Assembly: GCF_048403405.1 (NCBI RefSeq)
Contig: NZ_CP183129.1
DNA from: Escherichia coli
GTDB lineage: Bacteria; Pseudomonadota; Gammaproteobacteria; Enterobacterales; Enterobacteriaceae
DNA: 64,000 nucleotides
Reading direction: 5' to 3' (one strand)
Positions 5,287 through 8,200 of this stretch are shown in pieces; positions within the stretch are counted from its first letter, which is position 1, and every line of letters starts with the position of its first letter. The position numbers were made by a program.

Positions 5287-8200
5287 TAAGTTCGCAAAGT
5301 GGTAACTGCCGTGTGTTCTCTTAAAGCTATCGTTAATGGGCACACGGCATTTTTATATCAGATAAACGATATGTCATGACAATTTACAGACAGCATCGAT
5401 ATATAATTCATATTTATTAATTCTTAATAATATTTCTCATCTGAGTATGTATCATACAATAAGCATTATAAATAACTAATAAATTATTTATTATATTTAT
5501 ATATTGCCCCACTCTTCAGTTATCCTGTCTAAAATAAATCTCTTTGTTTTCAAATGACTGTATTTTTATATAAAGTCAATCATTGCGAGCATGGATTCTT
5601 TTAGTTATATTACCAAGCAGCTCATATAATATTTTCCAGCCATTCTATCTCTTATTTTTTTTCTGTGGTTAACTACACCAGCTTTATTCATTTAAATAAT
5701 GTGACTTGTTAAAGCTGAATGTAAAAATAATCGCCAATATTGCTTGGATTTTTTAACAAAAGGAAAGGTATAAATGAAATTCAATCTATCTAATTTATCC
5801 GCAGTTTTACTCGCATCAGGTATGCTGATGTCAACTGCGGTAACCGCTGCGCCAGGCGATGCATCACAATTTGGTGGTGCGGATACAGACTGGAGCACCG
5901 TTGATTATCCAAAACTCACCGATATGGATAGCAACACCGATGCGATGGGCGGAAACATCCGCTTTACTGGTCGTGTGGTTAAAGCGACGTGTAAGGTTGC
6001 TACAGAATCGAAACAGATTGAAGTGGTACTGCCAGTCGTACCTTCTAACGCTTTCACGGGCATTGATACCGAAGCAACGGGTGCCAGTAACCAGACTGAC
6101 TTCAACATTAAATTGACTGATTGTAGCAATACGGACAGTCAAAATATTGAATTTCGTTTTACTGGCGTAGCAGACGGTGCCAACCAGACGCTTGCCAATG
6201 AAGTGGAAGGAGCTGCTGATGCTGATGGTACTGGCGAAGCGGGAGCTACGGGTGTAGGGATTCGTATTTATTCTAAAAACACGACAACTGATGGCCTGAT
6301 TAAGCTGAACACACAAACTCCCCAGGGGAGTAGTTCTTCAGCAGCCTACGTGATTCCTGGCGATGCAGCCACTCATGATTTTACTGCGGCATTTACCGCG
6401 GGCTATGCTCAGAACGGTAGTACCGTTGCACCAGGTCTGGTGAAATCAACGGCAAGTTTCGTCGTGCTGTACGAATAATTACAGCAAGATAATTTCAGGT
6501 TACAGTTACTTGTAACCTGAAATTAATATTACATGTTTATTTGTAATAAATAGACATGCATCAGTAATTACAATTAATTTCATCTACAAGGATGCAGTAT
6601 GAGATGGATTTCAAAAAATAAATGTTTTTCGAATAGAAACATTAATTCTTTGCTGAAGACCCAATATATCATAAGGGCCGGTGCTCTATTTTTACTATCC
6701 GCCATATCTATCAATGCTATTGCTGCGGGTGGCTTCGGTCTTGGTTCTACGCGTCTGGTTTATCCATCTGACAGTCAGCAAATTACGCTAAGTGTACAGA
6801 ATGGTGGGGCTAACACCAGCTATTTAATCCAGTCATGGATTGATGACAATCAAAGCAGTAAAAAAAGTCAGGATTTTGTGGTTACGCCTCCTTTATTTAT
6901 GTTACCAACGCGAAAAGAAGCCTCATTGAGGATAATGTTTATTGGTAAATCACAGTTACCGACTGATCGCGAAACATTATTCTGGATGAATGTGAAAGCG
7001 ATTCCGCCAACGGATGAGAAGAATACCCAGAAAAACACGTTACAACTGGCGTTACAAAACAGAATTAAATTATTTTACCGTCCGACTAATTTACCCGTTC
7101 AAGCTGGTAAAGCACGGGATATGCTGCGATTTAAATACGAAGGTAAACAGCTAAGAGTCATTAACCCTTCTCCCTATTATCTGACGGTGACTGGAATCAG
7201 GGTGCAAGGGGCAAAATTACCCAATGCGTTTGTTCCACCGAAAAGTGACGTAACAGTGTCTTCACCAGTGATGCTAGCCGGTGAAATTACTTATCAAACT
7301 ATCAATGATTACGGTGCCACAACGGCCAGGCAAAAGGGAACGATGCAATAAACCTGGAAGATTAAAACGTTAAAGCAACTCAGGTCAGGGATATGAACCT
7401 AAAGCTCAGAAAACTCGAACACAGGATGGCAAGGCAGAAGCAGATGAGGCGGTGTATGCTGCTTCTACTGACACTTTTGCCTGCGTGTTCAGTGGCGGGT
7501 ATGCGCTTTAACCCTGCATTCCTGTCGGGTGATACAGAAGCTGTTGCTGATTTATCTCGTTTTGAGAAAGGGATGACATATCTACCTGGTAGTTATGAGG
7601 TTGAAATATGGGTCAATGATTCGCCTTTGACATCACGTAAGGTTACTTTCAAAGCTGATGAGCAGAATCAGTTGATCCCCTGTTTTTCGCTCGATGAGTT
7701 AGTTACTTTAGGAATTAACAAAAGTGCATTGCCGGAACAGGCGCAAGCAGAGGGAAATAATTGTCTCGATTTACGTATATGGTTCGCAGAAGTTCAATAC
7801 ACTCCTGAACTGGATGCGCAACGACTCAAACTGACCTTTCCGCAGGCAATATTAAAGCATGAAGCCCGTGGTTATATTCCACCTGAGGAATGGGATAATG
7901 GTATCCCGGCCATTCTTATTAATTATGATTTTTCTGGCAACAGTGATCGTGGAGACTATGCGTCTGATAGTTATTATTTAAATCTCCGTTCAGGTTTAAA
8001 TTTAGGGGCGTGGCGTTTTCGTGATTATTCTACATGGAGTCGTTCAGGTAATTCACCGGGTAAAATTGCACATGTGAGTAGTACGTTACAACGAGTAATT
8101 ATTCCTTTTAAAAGTGAATTAACACTAGGTGATACCTGGTCTTCATCGGATGTTTTCGACAGTGTGAGTATTCGTGGTGCTAAACTTGAATCCGATGAAA

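What the first reader, a model, noticed from the sequence alone, without database searches (positions are those of the whole stretch)
6491..6524. Perfect 14-bp stem-loop between the pilin and chaperone genes
The inverted repeat aatttcaggttaca / tgtaacctgaaatt sits 13 nt after the pilin stop codon inside a 120-bp intergenic gap. Such structures in fimbrial operons typically act as partial terminators or RNA-stability elements that keep pilin mRNA in excess over chaperone and usher mRNA.
Basis: partly seen in the sequence, partly recalled or inferred. Interest (0 to 1): 0.25.

Follow-up and report, generated by a model that had tools for sequence, protein, structure and literature searches.

The report
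Conserved RNA hairpin after aufA pilin gene
A 16-base-pair RNA hairpin just after the major pilin gene of the E. coli Auf fimbrial operon has been kept by compensating mutations across species; it most likely protects or marks the 3' end of the pilin message so that pilin is made in excess, which is an ordinary device of fimbrial operons.

Summary
The arms 6490-6504 and 6511-6525 form a perfect 15-bp inverted repeat. With a closing G·U pair this gives 16 bp and a UUAC loop, at about -18.5 to -20 kcal/mol. It starts 12 nt after the aufA stop codon, inside a 120-nt gap before the chaperone gene aufB. Chance expects about 0.005 such repeats per 64 kb.

The locus is the Auf chaperone-usher operon (aufABCDEFG) between glgP and glpD.

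Six orthologous variants all keep the hairpin: three further E. coli alleles, Citrobacter freundii and one unnamed species. The 12 core pairs are paired in 72 of 72 cells. Four pairs changed on both sides, and ten G·U wobbles are legal only on the sense strand. The loops, the flanks and the synonymous sites of aufA (30-45% identical) have diverged.

No ortholog has a U tract after the stem, so this is not a canonical intrinsic terminator.

The best reading is a sense-strand RNA hairpin anchored to the aufA 3' end. It would act mainly as a 3' barrier against exonucleases (differential decay), and possibly as a weak attenuator.

This is a new member of a known kind, comparable to papA, CFA/I, CS6 and malE-malF. 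It sits where the FimR2 small RNA lies after fimA. Function is untested. Interest is low to moderate.

The parts
5774..6478 (+). aufA, major pilin gene of the Auf chaperone-usher fimbria (234 aa); the hairpin lies in its 3' untranslated region
   Evidence: ORF. Homologues carry PF00419, and one is named 'Auf fimbriae major fimbrial subunit AufA'. Same glgP-glpD locus as the operon of Nissle 1917. The operon is named aufABCDEFG in PMC5956150.
6479..6489 (+). Short single-stranded spacer between the aufA stop codon and the base of the hairpin
   Evidence: The distance from the stop codon to the first always-paired position (p4) is 12-14 nt in all five orthologous lineages, although the spacer sequence differs.
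6490..6525 (+). RNA hairpin: 5' arm 6490-6505, UUAC loop 6506-6509, 3' arm 6510-6525 (15 Watson-Crick pairs plus a closing G·U)
   Evidence: RNAalifold consensus of 14 pairs, -18.6 kcal/mol. Pair counts.
6493..6504 (+). 5' half of the conserved core stem (pairs p4-p15)
   Evidence: Paired with 6511-6522 in 72 of 72 cells across six variants. Identity to the window is 23/24, 19/24 and 21/24 in the B2 allele, Citrobacter and L008.
6511..6522 (+). 3' half of the conserved core stem (pairs p15-p4)
   Evidence: Same as above.
6532..6558 (+). Second, weaker hairpin (12 pairs including 2 G·U, 3-nt loop), specific to this allele and probably not part of the conserved element
   Evidence: Predicted. 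It is not retained in the 88% allele, NRZ14408, the B2 allele, Citrobacter or L008. This middle part of the gap is only 25/48 and 21/48 identical to the B2 allele and L008, and is deleted in Citrobacter.
6574..6598 (+). Conserved aufB translation-initiation region (TTTCATCWACAAGGATGC, Shine-Dalgarno AAGGA), the second conserved island of the gap
   Evidence: 25/25, 22/26 and 20/25 identical in the 88% allele, the B2 allele and Citrobacter.
6599..7351 (+). aufB, periplasmic chaperone (250 aa)
   Evidence: Homologues carry PF00345+PF02753. RefSeq annotation.

Best explanation
The inverted repeat encodes a hairpin in the sense-strand auf mRNA, placed 12-14 nt after the aufA stop codon. It belongs to the 3' end of the pilin cistron rather than to the start of aufB.

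The most likely mechanism has three steps.
1. The operon is transcribed from the aufA promoter as one aufABCDEFG message.
2. The A/U-rich, unstructured and poorly conserved stretch downstream of the hairpin, or the less-translated distal cistrons, are cut by an endonuclease, typically RNase E.
3. 3'-to-5' exonucleases (PNPase, RNase II) then degrade back only as far as the 16-bp hairpin.

This would leave a long-lived aufA-only mRNA, so the pilin subunit is made in large excess over chaperone, usher and minor subunits. A low level of factor-assisted termination or pausing at the same hairpin may add to the effect.

Shown here: the structure exists, it is far beyond chance, it is under selection as a sense-strand RNA helix, it keeps its distance from the aufA stop, and it lacks a U tract.

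Inferred: the nucleases involved, the position of the 3' end, and the effect on the transcript ratio.
For: 1. Structure and stability. The hairpin is the minimum-free-energy feature in all five orthologous intergenic regions, at -16 to -24.5 kcal/mol, always with a 4-nt terminal loop.

2. Selection on pairing:
- 16 pairs were counted over 5 sequences and 91% of cells are paired. The core p4-p15 is 100% paired.
- Four pairs changed on both sides: p1 U-A to C-G, p4 U-A to A-U, p8 A-U to G-C, p13 A-U to G-C.
- At p13 the G·U intermediate is seen in L008.
- Sliding the 3' partners by 1-3 columns drops pairing to 21-49%.

3. Background divergence is near saturation. Fourfold-type synonymous sites of aufA are 45%, 39% and 30% identical to the B2 allele, Citrobacter and L008. 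The core arms are 96%, 79% and 88% identical. The loops, the spacer and the middle of the gap diverge or are deleted.

4. Strand: 10 non-Watson-Crick cells are G·U on the + strand, against 1 that would be G·U on the - strand. That is 7 versus 1 independent events.

5. Anchoring: the stop-to-stem distance is 12-14 nt in all lineages. By my subtraction from the coordinates, the stem-to-aufB-start distance varies between 25, 55, 57 and 73 nt.

6. No U tract in any ortholog.

7. Precedent:
- 3' protective hairpins in malE-malF and other operons, and the RNase-resistant 3' structure of papA mRNA (PMC5927463).
- The stem-loop between subunit and chaperone genes of CS6 affects expression (PMC8923064).
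- That paper cites Jordi et al. [quoted passage not shown]
- Strong hairpins also follow fimA, sfmA and elfA in K-12.
Against: - There is no transcript data. No 3'-end mapping, half-life or aufA:aufB abundance figures were found. In TosR-overexpression RNA-seq, aufA, aufB and aufC rise by similar log2 fold changes of 5.3, 5.4 and 5.6. This shows co-regulation but says nothing about absolute ratios.
- Only five or six distinct sequences are available. The shuffle controls are suggestive but not decisive: 11/500 for percentage paired and 20/500 for the covariation score.
- The stem sequence is more conserved than structure alone demands, with 16 of 24 core positions invariant. That could mean sequence-specific recognition by a factor not considered here.
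- A/U-rich long stems can also be RNase III targets, which would destabilise rather than protect.
Confidence: 0.55

Rival explanations
1. Partial intrinsic (Rho-independent) terminator or attenuator. A fraction of RNA polymerases stop at the hairpin, giving a short aufA transcript and a lower level of read-through aufBCDEFG transcript.
For: The hairpin is stable, conserved and just downstream of the first cistron. This would give the same physiological outcome. The papA mRNA is described as ending in an RNase-resistant terminator structure (PMC5927463).
Against: The defining U tract is absent in all five lineages, with 2-4 U in the first 8 nt and tail scores of 0.3-1.2. The base of the stem is A/U-rich, not G/C-rich. 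The consensus scan finds 9 terminator-like sites in 5200-13500 but not this one. It is established knowledge that E. coli RNA polymerase terminates poorly at hairpins without a U tract.
Confidence: 0.2
2. Processing site or small-RNA precursor. The hairpin is cut by RNase III within the 16-bp duplex. Alternatively, RNase E excises it as a stable 3'-UTR-derived small RNA, as happens for FimR2 in the fimA-fimI gap, and that RNA acts in trans or titrates an RNA-binding protein.
For: K-12 RefSeq annotates the 35-nt sRNA FimR2 at 4543674-4543708, beginning 10 nt after the fimA stop. This is the same relative position. FimR2 is made by RNase E from the fimAICDFGH transcript and has a Salmonella counterpart (PMC9723502). 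The stem sequence here is conserved beyond what pairing needs.
Against: There is no sequence similarity to the fimA-fimI gap beyond chance; 130-363 of 500 shuffles score as well. The two GGA CsrA-binding motifs of FimR2 are absent from the hairpin. The element is almost entirely double-stranded, with no conserved single-stranded seed; the 11-nt spacer is only 6-7/11 identical in the more divergent lineages (B2 allele, Citrobacter, L008). A 16-bp duplex is short for efficient RNase III cleavage (established knowledge). No Rfam family matches.
Confidence: 0.1
3. DNA-level palindrome: an operator for a dimeric regulator, or a cruciform, controlling an internal aufB promoter or operon read-through.
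For: It is a perfect palindrome with strongly conserved half-sites, TTC(A/G)GGTT(A/G)C.
Against: - Half-site spacing is not constant. In the alignment, 0, 4 and 6 extra nucleotides separate the arms in the E. coli, L008 and Citrobacter variants, and the inserted bases themselves pair.
- The half-sites differ from each other only in ways that remain G·U pairs in + strand RNA.
- Both-side changes keep complementarity, not sequence.
- No promoter-like site is found in 6479-6598.
- The element keeps its distance from the aufA stop, not from aufB.
Confidence: 0.03
4. No function: a fortuitous or hitch-hiking palindrome, for example a remnant of a mobile element.
For: Similar hairpin sequences occur by chance or as dispersed repeats in unrelated genomes. 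There were 51 pattern hits, none next to Auf homologues.
Against: It is single-copy in E. coli and found only at the auf locus in 782 of 5426 genomes. It is retained with compensatory changes in lineages whose synonymous sites are near saturation. The chance expectation is about 0.005 per window.
Confidence: 0.04

Closest known systems
3' protective stem-loops of differentially decaying operons (the malE-malF intergenic structure and the 3' structure of papA mRNA, as summarised in PMC5927463; the CFA/I fimbrial operon of Jordi et al. 1993, known here by citation only and recalled from memory)
   Same: A stable hairpin lies in the gap just after the cistron whose product is needed in excess. 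The structure is evolutionarily conserved. It sits in a chaperone-usher fimbrial operon, directly after the major subunit gene.
   Different: No 3' end, half-life or nuclease dependence has been measured for auf. The sequence is unrelated. The malE-malF element is a REP repeat (from memory), whereas this hairpin is single-copy.
Intergenic stem-loop of the ETEC CS6 operon, between cssB and cssC (PMC8923064)
   Same: A hairpin lies between the structural subunit gene and the chaperone gene of a chaperone-usher operon. Natural alleles differ in the loop. Mutating or deleting the stem changes transcript and protein levels.
   Different: The CS6 stem is short (7 bp) and G/C-rich (GGCCGC). The auf stem is 16 bp and A/U-rich. 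The CS6 mechanism is itself unresolved.
FimR2, the RNase E-generated 3'-UTR-derived sRNA in the fimA-fimI gap of E. coli, and FimR2S in Salmonella (PMC9723502)
   Same: The relative position is the same. FimR2 begins 10 nt after the major pilin stop codon, lies in the first gap of a chaperone-usher operon, is about 35 nt long and contains a stem-loop.
   Different: There is no sequence similarity and no GGA motifs. There is no conserved single-stranded 5' domain. No small RNA has been observed from auf.
Canonical intrinsic terminator
   Same: A stable hairpin lies a short distance downstream of a stop codon on the coding strand.
   Different: There is no U tract in any ortholog. The stem is long and its base is A/U-rich.

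Membership tests
Intrinsic (Rho-independent) terminator | Stable stem-loop on the transcribed strand downstream of a gene | tested here: met
   16-bp hairpin of -18.5 to -20.3 kcal/mol, starting 12 nt after the aufA stop.
Intrinsic (Rho-independent) terminator | U-rich tract (about 5 or more U within 8 nt) immediately after the stem | tested here: not met
   The site is not called by the scan. There are 2-4 U in the first 8 nt and tail scores of 0.3-1.2 in all five lineages, against 4.7-7.2 for U-rich reference tails.
Intrinsic (Rho-independent) terminator | Measured termination of RNA polymerase at the site | not testable with these tools
   Needs in vitro transcription or Term-seq.
3' protective (exonuclease-blocking) hairpin / differential operon decay element | Stable RNA structure located 3' of the stabilised cistron, within a polycistronic transcript | tested here: met
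   The operon is co-regulated as aufABCDEFG (PMC5956150).
3' protective (exonuclease-blocking) hairpin / differential operon decay element | Structure conserved among orthologous operons | tested here: met
   Six variants, core 72/72 cells paired, 4 pairs with both-side changes, wobbles legal on the sense strand only.
3' protective (exonuclease-blocking) hairpin / differential operon decay element | RNA 3' ends at the base of the hairpin, and a longer half-life or higher level of the upstream segment | not testable with these tools
   No transcript-level data for aufA versus aufB were found.
REP/BIME-type dispersed palindromes | Many copies per genome sharing a consensus | tested here: not met
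   blastn of the gap against 5426 E. coli genomes finds it only at the auf locus. The second 'place' in window-type genomes is probably the palindrome matching itself on the other strand.
FimR2 sRNA family | Sequence homology to FimR2 | tested here: not met
   Local alignment scores are no better than shuffles. No Rfam hit.
FimR2 sRNA family | GGA motifs for CsrA binding in the stem-loop | tested here: not met
   The only GGA in each auf gap is the aufB Shine-Dalgarno sequence.
FimR2 sRNA family | Location in the gap immediately after the major pilin gene of a chaperone-usher operon | tested here: met
   FimR2 starts 10 nt after the fimA stop. The auf hairpin starts 12 nt after the aufA stop.
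FimR2 sRNA family | RNase E-dependent release of a stable small RNA | not testable with these tools
   Needs a Northern blot or sRNA-seq in wild-type and rne-ts strains.
RNase III processing site | Roughly two helical turns (about 20 bp) of near-perfect dsRNA | tested here: inconclusive
   13-16 bp in the E. coli variants, 15 bp in L008, and 13+3 bp with an A·C mismatch in Citrobacter. This is shorter than classical substrates.
Palindromic operator for a dimeric DNA-binding protein | Fixed spacing of conserved half-sites | tested here: not met
   The half-sites are separated by 0, 4 or 6 extra nucleotides in different lineages, and the inserted bases pair with each other.

The most novel reading that the evidence does not exclude
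The hairpin is not only a passive 3' barrier. It could be the core of a stable 3'-UTR-derived small RNA released from aufA mRNA, an Auf counterpart of FimR2. Or it could be a sequence-specific docking site for an RNA-binding protein such as ProQ. Either would link Auf expression to other adhesin, motility or biofilm genes. If so, 'pilin-gene 3'-UTR sRNAs' would be a recurrent feature of chaperone-usher operons rather than a peculiarity of fim. The unusually strong sequence conservation of the stem (16 of 24 core positions invariant at near-saturated synonymous divergence) is the only hint.
Probability: 0.1. Interest if true: 0.5.

Novelty: new member of a known kind. Interest (0 to 1): 0.25.

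Why it matters
Auf is a widespread fimbria associated with extraintestinal pathogenic E. coli, and almost nothing is known about its regulation (PMC5956150). A conserved post-transcriptional element at the aufA/aufB junction would explain how subunit stoichiometry is set. It also gives a precise, mutable target of 12 core base pairs with natural compensatory variants for testing differential decay in a fimbrial operon.

More generally, four of four E. coli chaperone-usher operons examined here (auf, fim, sfm, elf) carry a strong hairpin without a canonical U tract right after the major pilin gene, and one of them is the FimR2 small RNA. A systematic look at these pilin 3' UTRs could be worthwhile. 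In itself the finding is expected biology.

Tried and rejected
- **Rfam:** a search of 5200-7000 at E up to 10 gave only sub-threshold chance hits such as snoRNA, miRNA and the Rickettsia rpsL leader.
- **Peptide-pattern scan of 100,044 species genomes for AufA relatives:** nothing confirmed. AufA orthologues are rare outside E. coli.
- **Degenerate hairpin pattern scan of the same collection:** 51 hits in many phyla. None lies next to AufA, AufB or AufC homologues by tblastn. The Enterobacterales hits lie beside unrelated ORFs. They were rejected as relatives.
- **Dispersed-repeat idea (REP-like or MITE):** rejected, because the element is single-copy in E. coli.
- **Second hairpin at 6532-6558 as part of a conserved two-hairpin module:** rejected, because it is not conserved. 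Outer helices formed by the flanks appear in several predicted folds but use different, non-homologous sequences in A/T-rich DNA, so I did not rely on them.
- **Internal aufB promoter:** none is found in the gap.
- **FimR2 homology:** rejected.
- **Transcript-level evidence:** the TosR RNA-seq paper and its supplements give fold changes only. The CFT073 nitric oxide and temperature papers give no aufA:aufB ratio.
- **Papers not held in the library:** the original auf paper (Buckles et al. 2004) and Jordi et al. 1993.
- **Metagenome scan:** not spent, because it would mostly return further E. coli copies.
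Full report
**Observation.** The repeat finder extends it by one pair to 15 perfect bp (6490-6504 / 6511-6525). It is the longest perfect short-range inverted repeat in the 64-kb window. As RNA, a G6505·U6510 pair closes a UUAC tetraloop, giving 16 pairs. The segment 6486-6545 folds to -20.3 kcal/mol (z = -4.6). The whole 131-nt junction folds to -35.7 kcal/mol (z = -6.2, 0 of 200 shuffles as good). In 200 Markov shuffles of the window, perfect stems of at least 14 bp with 3-10 nt loops occurred 0.005 times per shuffle, and none reached 15 bp. The pilin stop codon is at 6476-6478 and the next start codon at 6599, so the gap is 120 nt.

**Context.** The window carries glgP (2842-5289), followed by seven genes in the order pilin, chaperone, usher, two small subunits, a second chaperone and a large subunit (5774-12968). 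glpD follows on the other strand. The same arrangement sits between glgP and glpD in other E. coli genomes. One homologue is named 'Auf fimbriae major fimbrial subunit AufA'. The operon is aufABCDEFG of uropathogenic E. coli, whose regulation is described as little known (PMC5956150). Of 5426 complete E. coli genomes, 228 carry this allele (at least 95% identity). A further 556, including Nissle 1917 and UM146, carry a second allele that is only about 75% identical over the 5300-7400 stretch searched.

**Comparative test.** I collected the aufA-aufB gap from six distinct variants:
- the window type, with an identical hairpin in strain NRZ14408
- an allele whose AufB is 88% identical (L010, L011)
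- the second, ~75%-identical allele carried by Nissle 1917, called here the B2 allele (L001, L013, L014, L070)
- a one-base variant of the B2 allele (L069)
- Citrobacter freundii (L004-L007), where the operon lies at a different chromosomal site
- an unnamed organism whose AufA is about 70% identical (L008, L012)

Every variant has the hairpin as its dominant predicted structure, at -16 to -24.5 kcal/mol, and always with a 4-nt terminal loop of different sequence: UUAC, AAAG, UUAU or UUCU.

I number pairs from the base of the window hairpin, so p1 is 6490-6525. The twelve pairs p4-p15 (6493-6504 with 6511-6522) are paired in 72 of 72 cells. Four pairs changed on both sides while staying paired:
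- p1: U-A to C-G in the B2 allele and Citrobacter
- p4: U-A to A-U in L008
- p8: A-U to G-C in Citrobacter
- p13: A-U to G-C in Citrobacter, with the G·U intermediate present in L008

Sliding the 3' partners by one to three columns drops pairing from 91% to 21-49%. In Citrobacter and L008 the extra nucleotides at the top of the hairpin themselves pair, lengthening the stem.

This conservation stands against a nearly saturated background. Fourfold-type synonymous sites of aufA are only 45%, 39% and 30% identical between the window and the B2 allele, Citrobacter and L008. The core arms are 23/24, 19/24 and 21/24 identical. The middle of the gap is 25/48 and 21/48 identical to the B2 allele and L008, and absent in Citrobacter. 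The gap therefore consists of two conserved islands, the hairpin and the aufB ribosome-binding region, separated by dispensable sequence.

With only five or six sequences the shuffle controls are suggestive rather than decisive: 11/500 for percentage paired and 20/500 for the covariation score.

**RNA or DNA, and which strand.** All ten non-Watson-Crick cells that still pair are G·U on the + strand. Read on the - strand they would be A·C mismatches, and only one cell goes the other way. That is 7 versus 1 independent events, a one-sided binomial probability of about 0.035 by my arithmetic. Half-site spacing varies by 0, 4 or 6 nt between lineages. These points argue against a dimeric-protein operator or an antisense RNA, and for a helix in the sense auf mRNA. 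The element is single-copy in E. coli, so it is not a REP-type repeat. No Rfam family matches.

**Which cistron it serves.** The distance from the aufA stop codon to the first invariant pair is 12-14 nt in every lineage. The distance from the hairpin to the aufB start ranges from 25 to 73 nt (my subtraction from coordinates). So the hairpin is tied to the 3' end of aufA. I infer that it sits just beyond the reach of a terminating ribosome. No promoter-like site lies in the gap.

**Terminator or stabiliser.** No lineage has a U tract after the stem. There are 2-4 U in the first eight nucleotides, and tail scores are 0.3-1.2, against 4.7 for a U7 tail and 7.2 for U15. The consensus scan, which reports nine terminator-like sites across the operon, does not report this one. 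The base of the stem is A/U-rich. By established knowledge of E. coli intrinsic termination, this predicts at most weak termination.

The better fit is the 3' protective hairpin of differentially decaying operons. After an endonucleolytic cut downstream, 3' exonucleases are halted by the structure, and the upstream cistron outlives the rest. This is described for malE-malF and other operons, and for the RNase-resistant 3' structure of papA mRNA (PMC5927463). An intergenic stem-loop between the subunit and chaperone genes of CS6 also affects transcript and protein levels (PMC8923064). That paper cites Jordi et al. [quoted passage not shown]

I put about 0.55 on this mechanism and 0.2 on partial termination. 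The two are not exclusive and lead to the same outcome, an excess of pilin message.

**Other E. coli fimbrial operons.** In K-12 the gaps after fimA, sfmA and elfA all contain strong hairpins. Those after sfmA and elfA are not called canonical terminators by the scan. The fimA-fimI gap is annotated as the 35-nt small RNA FimR2, starting 10 nt after the fimA stop. FimR2 is cut from the fim transcript by RNase E and acts on CsrA and on mRNAs (PMC9723502). The auf hairpin occupies the same relative position. It shares no sequence with FimR2 beyond chance, lacks GGA motifs, and has no conserved single-stranded arm. It is a positional analogue, not a family member. A FimR2-like role remains an unexcluded minority reading (about 0.1).

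**What led nowhere.** A peptide-pattern scan of 100,044 species genomes found no further AufA relatives. A degenerate hairpin pattern found 51 unrelated hairpins in many phyla, none beside Auf genes. Papers on CFT073 transcriptomes give no aufA:aufB ratio. Two older papers were not held in the library. The second hairpin at 6532-6558 is specific to this allele.

**Verdict.** The element is a real, selected, sense-strand RNA hairpin at the 3' end of the pilin cistron of the Auf operon. Its most likely role is the ordinary one for fimbrial operons, which is to set pilin mRNA above the assembly genes, and it probably does this by blocking 3' decay rather than by canonical termination. It is a new member of a known kind. 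Interest is low to moderate (0.25). Function remains to be shown by 3'-end mapping, decay measurements and compensatory stem mutations.

Noticed in passing
window 5300-13000, versus L001 (Nissle 1917) and L004 (Citrobacter freundii): The auf operon exists as two deeply diverged alleles at the same glgP-glpD site in E. coli. They are about 75% identical over the 5300-7400 stretch compared, and synonymous sites of aufA are near saturation. 228 genomes carry the window type and 556 the B2 type, out of 5426. In Citrobacter the operon sits at a different locus, next to ABC-transporter genes. This suggests ancient divergence or horizontal replacement of the whole cluster.
   Followed up: partly
window 6532-6558: A second hairpin lies 6 nt after the first: CAUGUUUAUUUG-UAA-UAAAUAGACAUG, 12 pairs with 2 G·U. 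It is present only in this allele. It is altered in NRZ14408 and in the 88% allele, and absent in the B2 allele, Citrobacter and L008.
   Followed up: yes
window 5765-5787: AAGGTATAAATGAAATTCAATCT overlaps the aufA start codon. By my reading, it matches 22 of 23 positions of the reverse complement of the NsrR site reported by ChIP-seq at c4214 (aufA) in CFT073 (PMC5320621). This hints at nitric-oxide-responsive control of auf.
   Followed up: partly
L015 1175-1209 (E. coli K-12 fimA-fimI gap): RefSeq annotates the small regulatory RNA FimR2 in the gap right after fimA. The gaps after sfmA (L016 2256-2474) and elfA (L017 1409-1490) also fold into strong hairpins that the scan does not call as terminators. 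Pilin 3' UTR structures may be a general feature worth a systematic survey.
   Followed up: partly
L020-L026 (Neisseriaceae MAG), L046, L050, L051, L054, L066, L068 (Xenorhabdus spp.), L059 (Affinibrenneria), L018 (Providencia): Hairpins with the arm TTTCAGGTTGC / GCAACCTGAAA recur on seven contigs of one Neisseriaceae genome. They also recur at several intergenic sites in five Xenorhabdus species. They look like genome-specific dispersed hairpin repeats or terminators and are unrelated to fimbriae.
   Followed up: partly
window 13434-13459 and 52415-52442: Two other perfect palindromes were seen: TCAGGTCAGATT/AATCTGACCTGA just beyond the glpD stop, and TTAAAAAGGCGCT/AGCGCCTTTTTAA, which is A/T-flanked and G/C-cored, like a bidirectional terminator.
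   Followed up: no
window 12969-13474: The stretch between the last auf gene and glpD is annotated in a 100%-identical genome (L002 14808-15022) as a frameshifted, incomplete hypothetical gene, that is, a pseudogene remnant at the edge of the island.
   Followed up: no
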